Shown: positions 1-8,160 of the stretch, piece by piece
Layout: every line of letters begins with the position of its first letter
Position numbering within the stretch: position 1 is the stretch's first letter
IMG/VR virus record: IMGVR_UViG_2537562220_000008
Direction: 5' to 3' (one strand)
Source: a virus
Taxonomy: Duplodnaviria > Heunggongvirae > Uroviricota > Caudoviricetes
DNA length: 26,838 nt
The notes under the pieces: generated by a model
Told to the model about the DNA's origin: nothing
Seen by the model: the letters and a program-made list of their open reading frames with translations, nothing else
The model's database searches: none
Made by a program: the position numbers and the translations under genes

Positions 1-128
1 GTAAAACAGCCAGCGCTGGCGCGATTTAGCCCCGACATAGCCCCACTGTTCGTCCATTTCCGCGCAGACGATGACGTCACTGCCCGGCTGTATGCGCGAG
101 GTTACCGACTGCGGCCTGAGTTTTTTAA
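1..128 (-). CDS. insB: IS1 InsB' transposase region, 5' part only (truncated by window edge)
   Basis: Position follows from IS1 organisation (insB' entered by -1 frameshift at the A6C motif at 120-128); not listed in the ORF track because it has no stop inside the window. Confidence 0.5.
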
Positions 129-377
129 GTGACGTAAAATCGTGTTGAGGCCAACGCCCATAATGCGGGCTGTTGCCCGGCATCCAACGCCATTCATGGC
201 CATATCAATGATTTTCTGGTGCGTACCGGGTTGAGAAGCAGTGTAAGTGAACTGCAGTTGCCATGTTTTACGGCAGTGAGAGCAGAGATAGTGCTGATGT
301 CCGGCAGTGCTTTTGCCGTTACGCACCACCCCGTCAGTAGCTGAACAGGAGGGACAGCTGATAGAAACAGAAGCCAC
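102..377 (-). CDS. insA: IS1 InsA transposition regulator
   Basis: 91-aa [46 protein letters not shown]... matches IS1 InsA as I recall it; it starts 55 nt inside the IS1 end. Confidence 0.85.
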
Positions 378-432
378 TGGAGCACCTCAAAAACACCATC
401 ATACACTAAATCAGTAAGTTGGCAGCATCACC

Positions 433-1196
433 CAAAGCCCTGACGATCAACATCGACCATTACGGTGGCATTCGGTTTATTGCCTGTCAGATAATAATAA
501 TCAACAACCGTCATACCCTGGGTATATTTCCCCTGTGTTTCCACGCCAACCCAGCGCTCAACAGAGGTAAATAACTCCGGTTTCAACAGCCAGGCGATGG
601 TGCATGGGTCATGCAGTGGTGCGCCGACAAAGCCCCATTTTTCGTCTTTATGATATTCGAGGAAGAAATCCAGCAGTTCGGCAACAATGGTTGAAACAGG
701 GTTGCCAATCGCGCGGAAACGCTCAGTGTCTTCAACGTGGATTTGTGCTTTGTGAGTAACATCCAGACCGGCCATCACCACCGGGATCCCTGACTGGAAG
801 ACAATTTCTGCCGCTTCCGGGTCAACGTAAATATTAAATTCAGCCGCAGGCGTCCAATTACCCAGCCCCATTGCGCCGCCCATAATCACGATACGGGCAA
901 TTTTGCTATGCAGTTCCGGATGGCTATTGAGCAGCAAGGCAACGTTAGTTTGCGGTCCGGTAGACACAATCGTGACAGGTTCCGCACTTTCGCGCAGCGT
1001 TTTCGCCATCAGCTCTACCGCCGTACAGTTTTGCGGTGCGAACGTCGGTTCCGGTAATGCCGGGCCATCCAGACCGCTTTCGCCGTGCACATTGTCCGCG
1101 ATAATCAACTCACGCATTAACGGTTTTACCGCACCGCCTGCTACCGGAATATCGGTGCGATTAAGCAAGGTCAGCATACGCAGAACATTGCGTAAG
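433..1196 (-). pseudogene. rihA: ribonucleoside hydrolase RihA, internal fragment missing both ends
   Basis: ORF 428-1177 ([35 protein letters not shown]...) matches the nucleoside hydrolase RihA from about residue 50 onward as I recall it. The C-terminus is replaced by IS1 (stop lies inside the IS1 repeat); the N-terminal 50 or so codons are absent, with reading-frame identity lost near 1196 and an in-frame stop upstream. Confidence 0.65.
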
Positions 1197-1274
1197 TGAT
1201 GCGCCGCGCGATAAATGCACTCTATCTTGTGCGATAAATGGCATCCACGCGGCGTTTCATTATTTGAAAAAGAA
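1197..1274. other. Prophage terminus (Mu attR-like) with repeated candidate transposase-binding motifs
   Basis: Starts 5'-TG at the point where rihA identity stops; contains direct repeats GCGATAAATG at about 1209-1218 and 1241-1250; lies between the rihA fragment and the invertase stop codon. Confidence 0.5.
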
Positions 1275-1847
1275 TTACATTTCAGGTTGCGTTATGACAG
1301 TCCCAACAGGGTGATAGCGGTAGATCGTTGACAGTCCAATATCATAGATAATTGCCAGCCGCTTTCTGTCATACCCTTTCTGGAGCAATCTTGCGATCTG
1401 CTCATGCTGCTCCTTCGTCAGTTTCGGGCGACGTCCTCCAACTCTTCCTTGTGCTCGCGCAGCAGCCAGTCCTGCCAGCGTGCGCTCAACTATCAGTTCA
1501 CGCTCCATTTCTGCCAGTGCACCCATCATATGAAAAAAGAACCTTCCCATCGGAGTGCTGGTATCGATTGAATCCGTCAGACTGCGAAAATTGACACCTT
1601 TTGCGCGTAGCTCTTCTGTGAGAGCAATGAGGTGTTTCATTCTTCTACCCAACCGATCCAGCTTCCAGACCACCAATGTATCCCCTCTTTTAAGGCACTT
1701 TAAAGCGCGTTTCAGGCCTGGTCGTTCCGACTTGGTTCCGCTCATTTTGTCCTCAAAAATCTGTTCACATCCTGCGCACATTAATGCATTGCGTTGCAAA
1801 TCTATGTTTTGGTCATTTGTTGACACACGTATGTAGCCAATCAGCAT
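1275..1847 (-). CDS. Serine DNA invertase, Gin/Pin/Hin/Cin family
   Basis: 190-aa protein starting [34 protein letters not shown]... with the resolvase/invertase N-terminal catalytic motif (YIRVSTNDQ) and a C-terminal helix-turn-helix region; ATG at 1847 preceded by AAGGGAG. The ORF-track start at 1976 is an upstream in-frame artefact. Confidence 0.9.
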
Positions 1848-1902
1848 TAAAAATACTCCCTTTTGAGTGGTTAAAGTACTGAGATAATGTGGGGAGGATT
1901 TG

Positions 1903-1928
1903 AGAGATAAACGTTGGTTTGGGGGAAG
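1903..1928. promoter_or_regulatory. Candidate gix/hix-like inversion crossover site (left)
   Basis: Read inward to outward: TTCCCCCAAACC-AA-CGTTTATCTCTC, with the AAACC..GTTT core seen in Gin/Hin sites; sits exactly where homology between the two inverted arms ends. Confidence 0.5.
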
Positions 1929-2113
1929 GCTCTGCATTGCCTGTTGGTGTACCGGTTCCATGGCCCACCGCCACACCGCCAGCAGGCTGGTTAAAGTGCG
2001 ACGGGCGCGCCTTTACAAAAGAACAATATCCTGTTCTGGCCAGAGTCTACCCGACCCTCCGTCTTCCCGATTTACGCGGTGAGTTTATCCGTGGATGGGA
2101 CGACGGGCGCAAA
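1914..2113. repeat. Inverted repeat arm A (about 200 bp), partner of 3331-3530
   Basis: Sequence at 1914-2113 is the reverse complement of 3331-3530 (encodes ...GEGSALPVGVPVPWPTATPPAGWLKCDGRAFTKEQYPVLARVYPTLRLPDLRGEFIRGWDDGRK in both genes); similarity decays beyond about 2113. Confidence 0.85.
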
Positions 2114-2431
2114 GTTGATACAGGACGTAAGTTGCTGTCCGCACAAGGGGCAACGCTGTTAAGAACAGCAATGCTGGATTATTATAACCAGGACACTACG
2201 GGAACCTCGGGGATAGTCGGCATGGGATTCAACAATGAAGATTCCATTACAGACCTTCGTGAGGGCAGCTTTAAAATGCCGGACGGGACAACATTCAGCG
2301 ATCCTGTCGTGGCAATGTCAGACAATGGTATGCAGGCTACTATTCTGACCTCTATCAGAAGCGGGTATGCGAAGGGTATCACTGTCAGACCCCGTAGCAT
2401 TGCACTTAATTACATTGTGAGGGCAGTTTAA
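1919..2431 (+). CDS. Alternative tail-fibre C-terminal cassette (Sv'-like), promoterless in the present orientation
   Basis: Its N-terminal 65 aa are near-identical to an internal segment of the tail fibre (3052-4317); its C-terminus differs but ends with the same NYIVRA motif; directly followed by a tail-fibre assembly gene. Confidence 0.7.
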   Translation: MGEGSALPVGVPVPWPTATPPAGWLKCDGRAFTKEQYPVLARVYPTLRLPDLRGEFIRGWDDGRKVDTGRKLLSAQGATLLRTAMLDYYNQDTTGTSGIVGMGFNNEDSITDLREGSFKMPDGTTFSDPVVAMSDNGMQATILTSIRSGYAKGITVRPRSIALNYIVRAV

Positions 2432-3045
2432 TGAGTAACACTGCAGTTCTGGATGAAAACGGTATCGCCACTGTAGCGGGCGATATCACTGTATATCACT
2501 ATGACGAGGAAACCCGGGAATACACCTCATCCTCTGTGGAGTATCTCGCCCTTGGGGTGGGTACTCCGGCACATTCGTGCGCCGATGCACCGCCGGAGGC
2601 AATTTCGGGTTACGTGGTTTGCCGGACTGCCACGCTGAACGGGTGGGAGCATGTGCCTGATCACCGCGGCGAGACGGTATACAGCACGGAGAACGGTAAC
2701 CCTGTTCTGATTACCCAACCGGGTGATTACCCGGCGGACACCACCACAAAACAGCCAGCCACGCCATGGGATACCTGGAACGGTGAGGCGTGGGTAACCG
2801 ATACTGAACGGCAGCGAGCCGCAGAACTGGAGGTTGCCAGACAGCAACGCCAGCAACGGGTGAAACAGGCGATGGCGTCAGTCGATCTTATCAACCTCAA
2901 ACTGCGTGCTGGTCGCAGTCTGACACCAGAAGAAACGGCAAAACTGAACGCCGTGCTGGATTATATCGACGAGCTGAACGCACTGGATATCAGCACGGCA
3001 CCTGAAATCAGCTGGCCGGAAGCGCCACTGGCACTTGCCAGTTGA
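2431..3045 (+). CDS. Tail fibre assembly protein (Tfa/U-like chaperone)
   Basis: 204-aa protein whose C-terminus (...NLKLRAGRSLTPEETAKLNAVLDYIDELNALDISTAPEISWPE) has the conserved Tfa motif; start overlaps the Sv' stop (TAATG). Confidence 0.85.
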   Translation: MSNTAVLDENGIATVAGDITVYHYDEETREYTSSSVEYLALGVGTPAHSCADAPPEAISGYVVCRTATLNGWEHVPDHRGETVYSTENGNPVLITQPGDYPADTTTKQPATPWDTWNGEAWVTDTERQRAAELEVARQQRQQRVKQAMASVDLINLKLRAGRSLTPEETAKLNAVLDYIDELNALDISTAPEISWPEAPLALAS

Positions 3046-3051
3046 ACGGTA

Positions 3052-4317
3052 TCACGCCGCCCTCACGATATAGTTAAACGCGATATTGCGGGGGCGGGTT
3101 ATGTTAAAGAATGCTCCGTTTAATTCGGCTTTTGCGCGACTGTTTGTTCCACCCAGAATTACGTACCACAAATAATCGCTACGGTAATTCCCCGCAAACA
3201 CCTTATCGCCGCCATAGTCAATATTATTTCCGTTACTCATGTACGAGATATCAAGCGAAGAATCGTTATCGTCATGACCGCCGACCAGTGTACCTTTCTG
3301 CCATGAAAGCAACTTACGCCCCTCGTCAATCTTGCGCCCGTCGTCCCATCCACGGATAAACTCACCGCGTAAATCGGGAAGACGGAGGGTCGGGTAGACT
3401 CTGGCCAGAACAGGATATTGTTCTTTTGTAAAGGCGCGCCCGTCGCACTTTAACCAGCCTGCTGGCGGTGTGGCGGTGGGCCATGGAACCGGTACACCAA
3501 CAGGCAATGCAGAGCCTTCCCCCAAACCAAGGTAATTGAGGACATCTTTTATACTGCCCTTAGCGATAATAGCGCGACCAATAGCTGTAAGGGTTGCCAG
3601 CGCTGCGCGGTCTGCTCCGGTAAAATAAGGCAACCGATCTGCTGCAGTGGCAAGTCCTGCCAGAGCAGTGAGCGTGGCATCTGCCGGTTGTTTTCCGTTT
3701 GCCAGATCGTATGCAGCCTTGACCGCTTTCGGTGTGGCGGCCAGTATTTCAGACGTGCTGTTGATGGCACTGCTCAGTTGTACGGTGCCTTTTGCCGTCA
3801 GCGAGGCAGCAGGCACTCCCGTTATCTGACTCCACGGGTGAGTGTGGCTGACGGGCGCCTTGCCGGCTGCAAGGTCGTATGCAGCCTTGACCGCCTTCGG
3901 CGTGGCAGCCTCAGTTTCTGATTGACTGTCCGTGGCGCTGCTCAGTTGTACGGTGCCTTTTGCCGTCAGTGAAGCCGCAGGCACTCCCGTTATCTGACTC
4001 CACGGGTGAGTGTGGCTGGCAGGCGCCTTGCCGGCTGCCAGGTCGTATGCAGCCTTGACCGCTTTTGGTGTGGCGGCCAGCGTTTCAGAGGTGCTGTTGG
4101 TGGCACTGCTCAGTTGGGTGAACCCCTTAGCTGTCAGTGTCGCGTCCGGGTGGTTACGGGAACGTACGTGTTCAGCCAGTGACTGTGCGGCTTCCTCCGT
4201 TTTCTTCTTCAGCCATTTCGTCCTGTTTGCCAGTTGCCGGGGGCTCGATTTGATATCCCGTCTGCACCACCCAGAACCGGATCTGATGTCTCCAGTTGAT
4301 AGATATTTTCTTCCCAC
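3052..4317 (-). CDS. Tail fibre protein (P2 gpH / lambda Stf-like), currently expressed variant
   Basis: Contains tandem ...LTAKGTVQLSSATDSQSETEAATPKAVKAAYDLAAGK... repeats, a ...DATLTALAGLATAADRLPYFTG... segment and a collar-like C-terminal region ending NIAFNYIVRAA. Start is uncertain: GTG at 4317 has no Shine-Dalgarno sequence; an ATG at 4330 in another frame is a possible alternative. Confidence 0.85.
   Translation of the reverse strand: MGRKYLSTGDIRSGSGWCRRDIKSSPRQLANRTKWLKKKTEEAAQSLAEHVRSRNHPDATLTAKGFTQLSSATNSTSETLAATPKAVKAAYDLAAGKAPASHTHPWSQITGVPAASLTAKGTVQLSSATDSQSETEAATPKAVKAAYDLAAGKAPVSHTHPWSQITGVPAASLTAKGTVQLSSAINSTSEILAATPKAVKAAYDLANGKQPADATLTALAGLATAADRLPYFTGADRAALATLTAIGRAIIAKGSIKDVLNYLGLGEGSALPVGVPVPWPTATPPAGWLKCDGRAFTKEQYPVLARVYPTLRLPDLRGEFIRGWDDGRKIDEGRKLLSWQKGTLVGGHDDNDSSLDISYMSNGNNIDYGGDKVFAGNYRSDYLWYVILGGTNSRAKAELNGAFFNITRPRNIAFNYIVRAA
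3331..3530. repeat. Inverted repeat arm B (about 200 bp), partner of 1914-2113
   Basis: Reverse-complement identity with 1914-2113, as read directly from the sequence. Confidence 0.85.
3517..3542. promoter_or_regulatory. Candidate gix/hix-like inversion crossover site (right)
   Basis: TTCCCCCAAACC-AA-GGTAATTGAGGA; inner half-site identical to the left site, outer half-site different, as expected for the two ends of an invertible segment. Confidence 0.5.
3640..4150. repeat. 168-bp tandem repeats inside the tail fibre gene (about 3 copies, 56-aa units)
   Basis: The motif tacggtgccttttgccgtcag recurs at 3781 and 3949 (168 bp apart); the protein shows three successive ...TAKG(F/T)(T/V)QLSSA...AATPKAVKAAYDLA... 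units. Confidence 0.8.
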
Positions 4318-4345
4318 TTTTCTGTTTCATTCAGGTTTCCCATAA

Positions 4346-4924
4346 TCAACTGCTCCCGTGGTTATAACTGCCATCATGGATGGCGGTATTGTTATAGCGA
4401 ATGGCCACAGACTGATACTCCAGGCTGGCCAGATGGCAGCGGGCCGGTGCAAATGCAGCCAGCGTCTGACGCAGCATCGCGGCCTGATCGTTAGTAATGG
4501 GCTGTTTCAGAATAACGCGATAAACTGCCCAGGCGGCTGCATCTCCATGAACAAACAGTCCGTTATAGCTGCGATTGCCGTCGTAACTGAGACGACCTGT
4601 GCCTTCAATCAGATCCACTTCACCAAAGCCAAAACGGCGGATAACTTCCCGGATTGACCACGGCGTCCCTTTATACCGGTGCAGTTCGATGGCTGCTTTT
4701 ATAAGCATGCGGCGAACATCGTCCGATTCCGCCAGCTCCCAGCCATCGCCAGACAGTGAGAACTGCTCGCCCAGCCATGGCAGCGCGGAACTGTCGACGA
4801 TATCGACGAGAAAGACCATCAGTACGCTCAGGTCGATGTTATCCAGCCGTCCTGCCAGTCTTCCCAGCGTCCTGAGACTGATATCACCCTCAAGCGGTGG
4901 CGGGAGTTGTAATGGCTCAGTCAT
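4346..4924 (-). CDS. Baseplate/tail protein, P2 gpI-like (Mu gp48-like)
   Basis: 192-aa ORF immediately upstream of the tail fibre; start overlaps the stop of the J-like gene; size and position match gpI. Confidence 0.6.
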   Translation of the reverse strand: MTEPLQLPPPLEGDISLRTLGRLAGRLDNIDLSVLMVFLVDIVDSSALPWLGEQFSLSGDGWELAESDDVRRMLIKAAIELHRYKGTPWSIREVIRRFGFGEVDLIEGTGRLSYDGNRSYNGLFVHGDAAAWAVYRVILKQPITNDQAAMLRQTLAAFAPARCHLASLEYQSVAIRYNNTAIHDGSYNHGSS

Positions 4925-6412: not shown

Positions 6413-7009
6413 TCAGTGGGAGTGGTGGCTGGAGTTTTCGCCATCAGACAACATACTGCCCGTGGCATGGGCATTCCCTTTAATCTCGATATTGCCATGG
6501 ATGGTCGCGGTAACACCTTCACCACCAGAACCCGCCATGCCTCCTTCGTAAATCAGCTTACCCCTGACACGCAGATCTCCGGTAAGTTCGGTTTCCGGTG
6601 CGTCAATCGTGGCTTTCTGTGTTTTCAATACCACATCAGCACCACACTCAATGACAATATGCTCAATGCCGCCCCGGATGGTCAGAGTGTGCGTCTTCCG
6701 GTTGTAGCTGTACTCTGCACCATCAGCAAACCGGGTTCCCCGGATATTTTTGTCACTGAACGGTGGTTTATCGACGTCTGAATACACCGCGCCCAGAATA
6801 ACACCATCCTCGCCGTTGGCATCGAGCAGCACCTCAACCTGCTCCCCCACGTCAGGGAGCCAGTAATCTTTGTTATCCTGGGTATTGCGCTGCAGCACGT
6901 TAAGCCAGTTTGTGCGCAGGTTATCGCATTCAGGCAGACGAACGCGGGCCTGAACCCTGTCGGCATCAACGGCACTGACCGTACCGACCTGACGAGTGAC
7001 ACCAGTCAT
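6413..7009 (-). CDS. Baseplate spike protein, P2 gpV-like (Mu gp45-like)
   Basis: 198-aa ORF with a glycine-rich C-terminal region ending in a His-rich tip (SSHHSH); start overlaps the upstream stop (ATGA). Confidence 0.6.
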   Translation of the reverse strand: MTGVTRQVGTVSAVDADRVQARVRLPECDNLRTNWLNVLQRNTQDNKDYWLPDVGEQVEVLLDANGEDGVILGAVYSDVDKPPFSDKNIRGTRFADGAEYSYNRKTHTLTIRGGIEHIVIECGADVVLKTQKATIDAPETELTGDLRVRGKLIYEGGMAGSGGEGVTATIHGNIEIKGNAHATGSMLSDGENSSHHSH

Positions 7010-8160
7010 TTTTTCTTCTCCTTAATCACCGTCGATGTACTGCCATCCGGGTGATAAACCGTGAGTTTCTGAGTTTTTTGTTTTTTCCCTCTTGTGACTG
7101 GCCCCCGTGCCACTTCCAGCTCTGTGGTGTAGCCGCTGTTACGGTCAAACGCATGGCGGGCAGTGGTTATGAGCCATGGCCCGGATAACTGCCCAAAACC
7201 CACCAGTTCAATTTTGTTGCCTGCTGTCAGTTGAGGTGTTCCCGTCAGCGTCAGGGAGCCGTTCTGCTGGTATTCGTTATGTCTGGCCAGTGCTGAATCC
7301 GCTTTAATCCGGGCACTGTCCGGGTCGCTGACGCGGCTGTTAACTTTAAGTGAGTCAGCGCTGGTAACCTTACCACCTTTGAGCTTTTTGTCGCTTTCAC
7401 GGGTACCACCATCAGCTTCGTAGACGATCAGTTTTTTACTGCTGCTTTTCTGGTGTTTTACCTTTGCAGATTTATAGACCCGGTTGATGGTGTCACGCAG
7501 GGAAAAGCGGGCCACATCCTGCGGTTTTAACTGCCTGACCGGCTCCTGACTGCGCAGTGTGGCCAGATGAGAAAAAATCAGCTGGTCACTGACCACTTTC
7601 ACTGCATAACCATACTCGCTGGCCAGCCGGCGCAGAAAACCCACGTCGGTTTCAGCATACTGGGTCACCCGGTCGATTCTGATGGACTCAATGCTGCCCA
7701 CCAGTTTCAGTCGGTGCTTTCTGGCAATCCGCCCCGCAACAGCTGCCAGCGTGGTGTTCTCAAAACCACGACTGGTTTTAGTCCGCAGGGCACTGTTAAC
7801 CGAGGTGGCCACCCCACGGATAGAAACAACGGAAGCGGGCGAACTCACTTCGATCTCGTCTATAGAGAACGTACCGCAGGACAGCAGCTTCTCGCCCTGA
7901 TAGCCCATTTTCAGCGTCAGCGTGTCACCCTTGCCCGGATACCACTTATCCAGCCAGCGGCCATCGGTGTCGTCCAGCTCCACCTCAATGGTATCGGACT
8001 CATTTTTGATGTTATCGCTCCAGGTCACACGGGTGACATAAGGCGCGATATCAGAGGTGATGTTTTTCTGCAGATACCACAGAGTGAACACCGGTGTCAG
8101 CACATCGCTGACGCCGGTTAACGCTGATGTGACTTGCGCAGTGCTGTTTATCTCAGCCAT
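7006..8160 (-). CDS. Tail/baseplate hub protein, P2 gpD-like (Mu gp44-like)
   Basis: 384-aa ORF in the gpD position, downstream of the X-like and U-like genes. Confidence 0.6.
   Translation of the reverse strand: MAEINSTAQVTSALTGVSDVLTPVFTLWYLQKNITSDIAPYVTRVTWSDNIKNESDTIEVELDDTDGRWLDKWYPGKGDTLTLKMGYQGEKLLSCGTFSIDEIEVSSPASVVSIRGVATSVNSALRTKTSRGFENTTLAAVAGRIARKHRLKLVGSIESIRIDRVTQYAETDVGFLRRLASEYGYAVKVVSDQLIFSHLATLRSQEPVRQLKPQDVARFSLRDTINRVYKSAKVKHQKSSSKKLIVYEADGGTRESDKKLKGGKVTSADSLKVNSRVSDPDSARIKADSALARHNEYQQNGSLTLTGTPQLTAGNKIELVGFGQLSGPWLITTARHAFDRNSGYTTELEVARGPVTRGKKQKTQKLTVYHPDGSTSTVIKEKKK

What the first reader, a model, noticed from the sequence alone, without database searches (positions are those of the whole stretch)
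1275..3545. Asymmetric tail-fibre inversion switch: two C-terminal variants but only one assembly chaperone
A Gin/Pin-family invertase sits next to a roughly 1.6-kb segment (about 1916-3529) bounded by gix/hix-like sites, with 200-bp inverted repeats just inside each site. In the present orientation the tail fibre ends at 3052 with no downstream assembly gene, and the only Tfa gene (2431-3045) is convergent and promoterless. After inversion the alternative C-terminus (1919-2431) plus the Tfa would fuse to the constant fibre part. The canonical Mu, P1 and e14 switches carry a chaperone for each orientation, so this one is either a natural chaperone-independent/dependent pair or a degenerated switch.
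Basis: partly seen in the sequence, partly recalled or inferred. Interest (0 to 1): 0.6.

Follow-up and report, generated by a model that had tools for sequence, protein, structure and literature searches.

The report
Tail-fibre tip switch with one chaperone
This is a working DNA-flipping switch in a Mu-like prophage that swaps the receptor-binding tip of the tail fibre; having several alternative tips but one assembly-chaperone gene is the normal design of a widespread E. coli lineage, not local damage.

Summary
A 190-aa Gin-type invertase (1275-1847, -) lies beside a 1.6-kb segment bounded by two inverted 26-bp gix-like sites (1902-1927, 3517-3542). Each site opens a 229-nt inverted repeat, of which 199 nt are perfect. 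The segment holds tip B (1916-2431) plus the only tfa (2431-3045). Tip A (3052-3528, -) is now fused to the fibre shaft.

The switch is active. The present orientation occurs in 178 complete E. coli genomes and the flipped one in 120. Two strains with the same insertion differ only in orientation, and repeat SNPs place the exchange within about 20 bp at the site core.

The element is a BcepMu-like transposable prophage inserted in rihA. Relatives carry 2 to 6 tip cassettes and always one tfa, and a near-identical module sits in ~92-kb phage-plasmids. Two-tfa relatives exist (Erwinia, Enterobacter, pro483, Mu).

Tfa-less tips are under purifying selection. Tfa sequence does not track tip sequence, so one generic chaperone, or relaxed dependence on it, is most likely. 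How tfa is expressed when antisense to the late operon is unresolved.

This copy's fibre gene has a -1 frameshift (C5, 4239-4243). Overall it is a known kind of system with an under-noticed feature, of moderate interest.

The parts
1197..1274 (.). End of the transposable (BcepMu-like) prophage, next to interrupted host rihA
   Evidence: Host rihA homology stops at 1196. Homology to the same prophage inserted at other sites (lom, paaJ, beside aroA, rfaH) starts at about 1200.
1275..1847 (-). Gin/Din-family serine DNA invertase, 190 aa
   Evidence: Resolvase and HTH_7 domains. Matches Mu Gin PDB 3UJ3/4M6F over residues 1-181, E = 1e-92.
1880..1888 (+). Speculative extended -10-like element (TGaGATAAT) reading into the invertible segment; overlaps the likely invertase -10 on the other strand
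   Evidence: Read from the sequence. Not detected by the consensus scan. Identical in the four copies of this module compared (window, L002, L004, phage-plasmid L097) and absent from the other lineages compared. Function untested.
1902..1927 (+). Invertase-proximal gix-like crossover site GAGAGATAAACG|TT|GGTTTGGGGGAA (core TT at 1914-1915)
   Evidence: The exchange point is mapped to between -3 and +17 of the GGTTT start by SNP linkage in AR_0013 versus CE10.
1911..2139 (+). Left arm of the inverted repeat; encodes the conserved collar part of the tip
   Evidence: 229 nt, 96%. Perfect over 1914-2112.
1916..2431 (+). Silent tip cassette B (collar, variable region, conserved C-terminal strand RPRSIALNYIVRAV)
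   Evidence: Collar domain. Fused in frame to the shaft in natural flipped genomes L004, L005 and L007.
2431..3045 (+). The only tail-fibre assembly gene (tfa, 204 aa); its start overlaps the stop of cassette B (TAATG)
   Evidence: Caudo_TAP, E = 3.5e-28. Only tfa hit in the whole window.
3052..3528 (-). Tip A, currently fused to the constant shaft; no tfa downstream
   Evidence: Collar domain. Related to the T4 gp37 tip 2XGF, including the C-terminal NIAFNYIVR strand. Under purifying selection.
3305..3533 (-). Right arm of the inverted repeat
3517..3542 (-). Shaft-proximal gix-like crossover site TCCTCAATTACC|TT|GGTTTGGGGGAA (core at 3529-3530)
3529..4343 (-). Constant part of the tail-fibre gene (true start ATG 4343); three 168-nt Phage_fiber_2 repeats at 3692-4195
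4239..4243 (-). C5 run where eight related loci have C6: a -1 frameshift at codon 35 of the fibre gene

Best explanation
**What it is.** This is the host-range switch of a BcepMu-like transposable prophage inserted in rihA. A Gin-type serine invertase recombines two inverted 26-bp gix-like sites at their central TT. That flips a 1.6-kb segment and exchanges the last ~160 codons of the tail-fibre gene. The exchanged part is a compact T4-gp37-like tip: a collar, a variable loop region and a conserved C-terminal strand. The two tips here are A (now expressed) and B.

**The single tfa.** It is not a local loss. It is the standard architecture of this lineage, a Min-like 'tip shufflon' with 2 to 6 cassettes and one tfa, always directly 3' of the B-type cassette. 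The module also occurs in P1-like phage-plasmids.

**Most likely mechanism for the tfa-less tips (inferred).** The ~200-aa Tfa that accompanies collar-type tips acts on the conserved collar and C-terminal frame rather than on the variable loops. One generic copy could then serve every cassette. Cassettes can be exchanged between their conserved 5' (200 bp) and 3' (45 bp) ends without carrying a chaperone along.

When tfa lies antisense to the late operon, as here, there are three possibilities. It may be made from a separate weak promoter; the candidate is TGaGATAAT at 1880-1888, facing into the segment. It may come from a co-resident prophage. Or it may be partly dispensable.

**Shown versus inferred.**
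- Shown: anatomy, site-specific exchange, both orientations in nature, lineage-wide 1-tfa layout, selection on tfa-less tips, lack of tip-Tfa covariation.
- Inferred: chaperone generality and the route of tfa expression.

**This copy.** It is probably non-functional as a fibre gene because of the C5 frameshift.
For: **Anatomy.**

**Both orientations in nature.** 178 and 120 of 5,426 complete E. coli genomes.

**Site-specific exchange.** AR_0013 and CE10 have the same insertion and opposite orientation. Repeat SNPs from +17 onward stay with their cassette, and the -3 SNP stays with the flank. Published PCR and XmnI digestion show switching in the aroA-adjacent copy (record PV468777 = L010).

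**Mu-like identity.** Gene order is D-V-W-J-I-fibre-invertase-end. Insertion sites vary. PhiKM is classified as Bcepmuvirus.

**One tfa with 2, 3 or 6 tips, in different permutations.**. The same module is found in phage-plasmids with identical invertase and Tfa protein accessions.

**Generic Tfa.**
- Across 59 distinct tip/Tfa pairs from Enterobacterales, tip variable regions share a median 19% identity.
- The Tfa N-part keeps a median 46% identity, with no covariation (Spearman rho 0.007, p 0.77).
- Tfas linked to A-like, B and other tips are 59-63% identical in the first 100 residues. P2-G-like and Sodalis Tfas are only 16-23%.

**Tfa-less tips are functional proteins.** pN is 0.14-0.36 against a saturated pS of 0.6-0.8; dN/dS is 0.08-0.17 where computable. 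All five cassette types give intact in-frame fusions.
Against: - No expression data exist. The consensus scan found no promoter in 1200-4500.
- The proposed extended -10 is a single weak match that overlaps the invertase's own likely -10. It is not conserved in the six-tip lineage.
- North et al. 2019 (Nat Microbiol; abstract recalled from memory, the paper appeared here only as a reference entry) describe the Tfa N-domain as the non-conserved, fibre-binding part. That would predict tip-specific chaperones.
- Close relatives keep two tfa genes, one directly after an A-type tip. A second copy is therefore not always redundant.
- The covariation test uses non-independent pairs.
- This window's fibre gene is frameshifted, so nothing can be said about function of this particular copy.
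Confidence: 0.55

Rival explanations
1. Tips of the A, A2 and C types fold and trimerise without any Tfa. On this reading the locus is a natural chaperone-independent / chaperone-dependent pair.
For: - 30 of 90 evaluable collar-type tips in other Enterobacterales have no tfa directly downstream.
- The A2-type cluster is tfa-less in all 5 evaluable tips. These include a full-length fibre in a Rahnella P2-like cluster where the fibre gene is followed directly by sheath and tube genes.
- Sodalis has the same asymmetry, with the tfa attached to the other, non-collar cassette.
- A Photorhabdus/Xenorhabdus tip cluster is tfa-less in 6 of 6 cases.
- The tips are small, 143-158 aa, and simpler than T4 gp37.
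Against: - The A-type tip is followed by its own 199-aa tfa in Erwinia aphidicola and Enterobacter hormaechei.
- The closest solved relative, the T4 gp37 tip, needs gp38 and gp57A. This is established knowledge, not tested here.
- Absence of an adjacent tfa does not prove absence of a chaperone elsewhere in those genomes.
- There is no intramolecular-chaperone domain.
Confidence: 0.25
2. The switch is degenerate. An ancestral second tfa was lost, and isomers in which tfa is antisense to the late operon give fibre-defective, non-infectious particles. They are tolerated because inversion keeps regenerating productive isomers, or because other prophages supply Tfa.
For: - Two-tfa relatives of the same phage type exist.
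- Only 6 bp separate the tfa stop from the tip A stop, with no room for a remnant.
- This copy and some relatives carry inactivating mutations: the fibre frameshift and a gpW internal stop in AR_0013.
- Genomes with the element usually hold several homologous fibre/tfa modules, a median of 4 matching places per genome.
Against: - The layout is conserved in hundreds of genomes and in phage-plasmids.
- Arrays have expanded to six tips while keeping one tfa.
- Tfa-less cassettes show strong purifying selection and intact frames.
- Roughly 60% of the genomes scored are in the tfa-antisense state (178 versus 120). That would be a heavy cost if this state were dead.
Confidence: 0.15
3. The inversion is not invertase-mediated. 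It results from RecA-dependent homologous recombination between the 200-bp inverted repeats, or the repeats are an assembly artefact.
For: 199 bp of perfect identity is enough for RecA-dependent recombination.
Against: - In AR_0013 versus CE10, every informative repeat SNP from +17 to +130 stays linked to its cassette. The exchange therefore lies in the ~20 bp at the gix-like core.
- An intact Gin homologue is adjacent.
- The same structure appears in hundreds of independent complete assemblies, which excludes an artefact.
Confidence: 0.03

Closest known systems
Phage Mu G segment with Gin (also P1 C segment with Cin)
   Same: - The invertase is closely related to Gin (E = 1e-92 against 3UJ3/4M6F).
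- Sites are 26-bp gix-like, in inverted orientation.
- The invertase gene lies just outside the segment and is transcribed in the same direction as the late genes.
- A constant shaft is fused in frame to alternative C-termini.
- The switch sits at the end of a transposable-phage genome.
   Different: - Mu has S-U / U'-S', one chaperone per tip. This element has one tfa for two tips, and up to six in relatives.
- The tips are short T4-gp37-like collar modules (~160 aa) rather than Mu S-type ends.
- The repeats are 229 bp rather than 34 bp. P1 also has long repeats (from memory).
- The core dinucleotide is TT rather than TC.
Min multiple-inversion system of plasmid p15B, and the three-repeat tail-fibre shufflon in an EPEC P2-like prophage (Goldberg et al. 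2014, PMC4272514)
   Same: - Several crossover sites allow many alternative fibre C-termini on one constant gene.
- Relatives of this window have 3 to 6 cassettes in different permutations.
- A near-identical module sits in ~92-kb non-mobilizable plasmids that carry tail-fibre, holin and head genes; I take these to be P1-like phage-plasmids, like p15B, but did not test their relationship to P1.
- Goldberg et al. report three alternative C-termini and four coexisting isomers.
   Different: - The window itself keeps only two sites and two tips.
- I could not obtain the p15B sequence, so identity to Min and the number of tfa genes in p15B are untested. From memory, 3.5 kb for six variants leaves room for only one tfa.
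- None of the papers read comments on the tip-to-chaperone ratio.
Two-tfa relatives: Erwinia aphidicola BcepMu-like prophage (L090), Enterobacter hormaechei locus (L091), P2-like phage pro483 (L009)
   Same: - Same invertase type, same collar-type cassettes and the same ~200-aa Tfa class.
- L090 has the same W-J-I-fibre gene order.
- L090 and L091 even carry an A-type tip, about 70-74% identical.
   Different: They keep the canonical convergent tfa pair, one after each tip.
T4 gp37 distal tip with its chaperone gp38 (PDB 2XGF)
   Same: Collar domain plus the C-terminal ...NIAFNYIVR strand returning to the collar. From established knowledge, lambda-type Tfa can replace gp38.
   Different: The needle and head domains of gp37 are replaced by a 65-95-residue variable insert, and His-X-His repeats are absent from tips A and B. 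The AF2 model is confident only for the collar.

Membership tests
Gin/Hin/Cin/Pin/Min (Din) serine DNA-invertase systems | A ~190-aa serine recombinase with an N-terminal catalytic domain and a C-terminal HTH, closely related to Gin/Hin | tested here: met
   Resolvase and HTH_7 domains. E = 1e-92 to Gin structures over residues 1-181, with Ser9 conserved in [13 protein letters not shown].
Gin/Hin/Cin/Pin/Min (Din) serine DNA-invertase systems | Two 26-bp imperfectly palindromic crossover sites in inverted orientation with the same central dinucleotide | tested here: met
   Sites at 1902-1927 and 3517-3542. The inner half-site GGTTTGGGGGAA matches gix GGTTTACAGGAA at 9 of 12 positions. The core is TT in both sites.
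Gin/Hin/Cin/Pin/Min (Din) serine DNA-invertase systems | Exchange takes place at the site core, and both orientations exist | tested here: met
   SNP linkage in AR_0013 versus CE10. 178 versus 120 genomes. PCR evidence in the literature.
Gin/Hin/Cin/Pin/Min (Din) serine DNA-invertase systems | Fis-bound recombinational enhancer inside the 5' part of the invertase gene | tested here: inconclusive
   By eye, the 5' ~180 nt of the gene align well with Mu gin, where the enhancer lies; no identity was computed. Fis sites were not identified or scored.
Mu G / P1 C-type two-state host-range segment | A constant fibre 5' part fused in frame to alternative 3' parts by inversion | tested here: met
   In-silico flip. 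Natural fusions shaft-A, -A2, -B and -C, all intact.
Mu G / P1 C-type two-state host-range segment | Each alternative tip is followed by its own assembly gene (U and U') | tested here: not met
   One tfa in the segment and in the whole window. Mu has two.
Min-type multiple inversion system (p15B) | More than two crossover sites giving more than two alternative tips | tested here: not met
   The window has two sites. Close relatives have 3 (L002, L004, L006) or 6 (L092-L094).
Min-type multiple inversion system (p15B) | Invertase orthologous to Min of p15B | not testable with these tools
   X62121 and MN510445 are not in the collections.
Caudo_TAP tail-fibre assembly proteins (lambda Tfa / Mu U / P2 G) | Conserved C-terminal Caudo_TAP domain, with the gene directly 3' of a fibre tip | tested here: met
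   PF02413, E = 3.5e-28, residues 79-199. The start overlaps the stop of cassette B.
C-terminal intramolecular chaperone domain (Peptidase_S74 type) | An extra, autocleaved C-terminal domain after the receptor-binding part | tested here: not met
   Only Collar and Phage_fiber_2 were found. Tip A is shorter than tip B and ends in the family-wide RPRNIAFNYIVRAA strand.
BcepMu-like (Bcepmuvirus) transposable phages | Mu-type tail gene order, variable insertion sites, and the fibre/invertase module at the genome end | tested here: met
   Gene order. Insertions in lom, paaJ, beside aroA, in rfaH and in rihA. The 99%-identical PhiKM is classified as Bcepmuvirus. The transposase end lies outside the window and was not examined.

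The most novel reading that the evidence does not exclude
The lineage has uncoupled receptor-binding tips from their chaperone. A single generic Tfa is kept available in every isomer, for example through an inward-facing promoter beside the invertase-proximal crossover site that transcribes whichever cassettes, and tfa, lie next to it. Alternatively, the A, A2 and C tips form a class of self-folding T4-gp37-like receptor-binding domains. Either reading would give a minimal, portable tip-plus-universal-chaperone toolkit. It would also contradict the view that each fibre tip needs a cognate Tfa.
Probability: 0.3. Interest if true: 0.6.

Novelty: new member of a known kind. Interest (0 to 1): 0.4.

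Why it matters
Invertible tail-fibre segments are textbook biology, so the switch itself is ordinary. What is under-noticed is that a common E. coli lineage, and the phage-plasmids sharing its module, run 2 to 6 alternative tips on one chaperone gene. In many isomers that gene points the wrong way for the late operon.

If one Tfa serves unrelated tips, or these tips need none, two things follow. The rules for chaperone specificity would be refined. Engineering of phage or tailocin host range would become simpler, because cognate chaperones are currently carried along with each swapped tip.

Nature also provides a ready comparison: the same A-type tip with its own tfa (Erwinia, Enterobacter) and without one (E. 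coli).

Tried and rejected
- **Consensus promoter/terminator scan of 1200-4500.** No promoter hits, and terminator hits at the chance level. Uninformative for activator-dependent late promoters.
- **AlphaFold2 of tip A with a 38-sequence alignment.** Mean pLDDT 55; only the collar and the last strand are confident. No fold search was run, and the intramolecular-chaperone question was settled by sequence instead.
- **First iterative Tfa HMM.** It drifted into tip sequences. It was rebuilt excluding tips and converged at 109 hits.
- **First tip clustering.** Too lenient, because the conserved DDGRxVDxGR stretch was included. It was redone on the trimmed variable region.
- **NCBIfam and cluster names for the invertase and Tfa.** Only generic names were returned.
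- **p15B Min (X62121) and pJIE250-3 (MN510445).** Not available for direct comparison.
- **Tblastn of the tip A variable region against phage records.** Almost nothing beyond this lineage.
- **The idea that A-type tips are always tfa-less.** Rejected once the Erwinia and Enterobacter loci were seen.
- **Literature searches.** I found no paper commenting on the tip-to-chaperone ratio.

Full report
**1. Anatomy**

The repeat finder gives one long inverted repeat, 1911-2139 against 3305-3533, 229 nt at 96%. Base-by-base comparison shows 199 identical positions (1914-2112), with a single G/C difference at 1913 just outside.

The outer end of each arm is a 26-bp gix-like site:
- GAGAGATAAACG|TT|GGTTTGGGGGAA at 1902-1927.
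- TCCTCAATTACC|TT|GGTTTGGGGGAA on the other strand at 3517-3542.

The shared 16-mer occurs exactly twice in the window, inverted, with none expected by chance. Mu gix is TTATCCAAAACC|TC|GGTTTACAGGAA.

The genes are as follows:
- **Invertase:** 1275-1847 (-), 190 aa, with Resolvase and HTH_7 domains. It matches the Mu Gin structures at E = 1e-92 over residues 1-181.
- **Cassette B:** 1916-2431 (+), Collar domain.
- **tfa:** 2431-3045 (+), Caudo_TAP, inside the segment with cassette B.
- **Tip A:** the fibre gene on the - strand ends at 3052 with tip A, 6 bp from the tfa stop.

A six-frame scan of the whole 26.8-kb window with a Tfa HMM and three Tfa seeds, at E up to 10, finds only that one tfa. 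Small overlapping ORFs have no Pfam hit.

**2.

- The fibre gene starts at ATG 4343, directly after the P2-I-like gene.
- In this window a C5 run (4239-4243) replaces the C6 found in eight related loci. This gives a stop after 44 codons. Seven of those relatives have intact fibres of 415-531 aa; the eighth, PhiKM, ends early at 319 aa.
- The GTG 4317 start is an artefact of that frameshift.
- This copy is therefore probably defective, unless C5 is a homopolymer sequencing error.

**3. What the element is**

Upstream on the - strand lie homologues of P2 I, J, W, V and D, which is the Mu gene order. Host rihA homology stops at 1196, and an IS1 fragment lies further left.

The same element, at 98-99% identity, is inserted at other places in other E. 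coli: in a lom gene, in paaJ, beside aroA and in rfaH. The 99%-identical phage PhiKM is classified as Bcepmuvirus. It is thus a BcepMu-like transposable prophage, with the fibre switch at the genome end as in Mu.

**4. The switch is active and site-specific**

- The present configuration is found at 80% coverage or more in 178 of 5,426 complete E. coli genomes. My in-silico flipped configuration is found in 120. Both lists include strains from the same studies.
- AR_0013 and CE10 carry the prophage at the same insertion site with opposite orientations.
- In that pair, eight repeat SNPs between +17 and +130 of the GGTTT start remain linked to their cassette. The difference at -3 remains with the flank. 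The exchange therefore lies in about 20 bp at the site core, not somewhere along the 200-bp repeat.
- A preprint on ST131 isolates shows by PCR and XmnI digestion that the aroA-adjacent copy switches within one isolate, and states that the impact is unclear (the deposited record is L010).
- Goldberg et al. 2014 had already shown coexisting isomers for a Mu prophage and for a three-repeat P2-like tail-fibre shufflon in EPEC.

**5. The asymmetry is the lineage's normal design**

Dissection of related loci shows five cassette types (A, A2, B, C, D). All are intact, and all end in RPRN(I/V)AFNYIVRA-like strands.

- Most genomes have three cassettes.
- The states seen are shaft-A, shaft-A2, shaft-B-tfa and shaft-C-[B]-tfa.
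- There is always one tfa, directly after the B-type cassette.
- A second E. coli lineage has six tips and one tfa, found in three different permutations.
- One strain has lost a cassette relative to same-study strains with the same insertion (L005 versus L002). The window's two-tip version may have arisen the same way.
- A near-identical B-tfa-A module (98-99% over 96% of the query; invertase and Tfa protein accessions identical in the two copies examined) is present in ~92-97-kb non-mobilizable plasmids that carry tail-fibre, holin and head genes. I read these as P1-like phage-plasmids. They carry two or four tips and one tfa.

**6. Relatives with the canonical layout**

- Mu has S-U / U'-S'.
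- P2-like pro483 has a collar cassette with tfa facing a second tfa with H.
- A P1-like phage has a second, unannotated tfa.
- A BcepMu-like prophage of Erwinia aphidicola and a locus in Enterobacter hormaechei have two convergent tfa genes. One of them directly follows an A-type tip 70-74% identical to the window's.

The A-type tip is therefore not tfa-less everywhere.

**7. Do tfa-less tips work?**

I surveyed 79 loci from other Enterobacterales, using a tip HMM, a Tfa HMM and the invertase as a query.

- Of 90 evaluable collar-type tips, 60 are followed directly by a tfa and 30 are not.
- A2-type tips are tfa-less in all five evaluable cases. One is a Rahnella P2-like cluster where the fibre gene is followed directly by sheath and tube genes. 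Another is a Sodalis switch with the same asymmetry, where the tfa belongs to a gp37_trimer-type cassette.
- Comparisons of A and A2 tips across lineages give pN of 0.14-0.30 against a saturated pS of 0.6-0.8, and dN/dS of 0.08-0.17 where computable, including in the variable region. The C-type pair gives pN of 0.33-0.36 against pS of about 0.8.

These cassettes therefore encode selected proteins.

**8. Is the chaperone tip-specific?**

Across 59 distinct linked tip/Tfa pairs, tip variable regions are essentially unrelated (median 19% identity). The first 110 residues of the Tfa keep a median 46% identity. The two measures do not covary (rho 0.007, p 0.77).

Tfas linked to A-like, B and other collar tips are 59-63% identical to the window's over the first 100 residues. 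P2-G-like or Sodalis Tfas are 16-23%. The pairs are not phylogenetically independent, so this is suggestive only.

The closest solved relative of the tips is the T4 gp37 tip (2XGF, E = 1e-15). It shares the collar and the C-terminal NIAFNYIVR strand. No intramolecular-chaperone domain is present. An AF2 model was confident only for the collar.

**9. Interpretation**

Firmly supported: this is an active Gin/Min-type tip switch of a Mu-like prophage, and its one-tfa layout is conserved rather than accidental.

Most likely, but inferred: the class-specific Tfa works on the conserved collar and C-terminal frame, so one copy suffices. Cassettes can then be exchanged between their conserved ends without a chaperone.

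The open step is tfa expression when it lies antisense to the late operon, as here and in about 60% of genomes scored.
- The consensus scan finds no promoter.
- An extended -10-like TGaGATAAT at 1880-1888 faces into the segment. It would transcribe cassette B and tfa in exactly this orientation.
- However, it overlaps the invertase's own likely -10 and is absent from the six-tip lineage. It remains a hypothesis.

The rivals are true chaperone independence of the A, A2 and C tips, and a tolerated defect. Neither is excluded.

**10. Novelty and score**

The switch belongs to a long-known kind (Mu G, P1 C, p15B Min, EPEC shufflon). In the papers I could read, nobody comments on the tip-to-chaperone imbalance. 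I could not check p15B itself.

I rate it a new member of a known kind with an under-noticed and experimentally tractable feature: interest 0.4. The particular copy in this window is probably inactive.

Noticed in passing
window 4239-4243 (- strand): The tail-fibre gene has a C5 run where eight related loci have C6. This is a -1 frameshift at codon 35, giving a stop after 44 aa. It is either a real pseudogene or a homopolymer sequencing error.
   Followed up: yes
window 1-1196: The host flank is rihA, cut by the prophage end at about 1197. An IS1 fragment (insA, 102-377) lies to the left. No complete E. coli genome in the collection has this rihA::prophage junction, and the IS1-rich context could indicate Shigella.
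   Followed up: partly
window 3692-4195: Three 168-nt tandem repeats (Phage_fiber_2) lie in the fibre shaft. Fibre length in relatives varies from 415 to 531 aa, and most of that range seems to come from extra copies of this repeat in L003 and L004 (inferred from length, not counted), so shaft length appears variable.
   Followed up: partly
L096 (NZ_CP028585.2) and L097 (NZ_AP019805.1): A near-identical tip/tfa/invertase module (98% identity over 96% of the query; identical invertase and Tfa protein accessions) sits in ~92-kb non-mobilizable plasmids with phage structural genes (probably P1-like phage-plasmids). A complete host-range switch has moved between Mu-like and phage-plasmid elements.
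   Followed up: partly
L092, L093, L094 (E. coli assemblies GCA_016103345.1, GCA_036295545.1, GCA_036293265.1): A second E. coli lineage has six collar-type tip cassettes and one tfa. It is found in three different permutations, so it is a genuine tail-fibre shufflon.
   Followed up: partly
L005 (strain R11) versus L002 (strain S2), same aroA-adjacent insertion: R11 lacks cassette C, which fits a deletion between directly repeated crossover sites or collar repeats. The array can shrink as well as invert.
   Followed up: partly
L001, L002, L003, L007 (RefSeq annotation): The fibre gene is annotated as several 'incomplete' pseudogene fragments although the ORF is intact (426-474 aa). This is probably an annotation artefact caused by the repeats and by cassette homology.
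   Followed up: partly
L095 (phage vB_EcoM-813R1, ON470617.2) about 6475-7329, - strand: There is an unannotated second tfa convergent with the annotated one. The invertase is annotated as two pieces (Hin1, Hin2), suggesting a frameshift.
   Followed up: no
L057 (Sodalis sp. MAG) 1514-4369: An independent instance of the same asymmetry: the shaft carries an A2-like collar tip without tfa, facing a tfa plus a gp37_trimer-type cassette, next to an invertase.
   Followed up: partly
L001 (AR_0013) 7813-8160: The gpW/gp25 baseplate gene of this otherwise near-identical prophage is annotated with an internal stop. Several copies of the element appear to be decaying.
   Followed up: no
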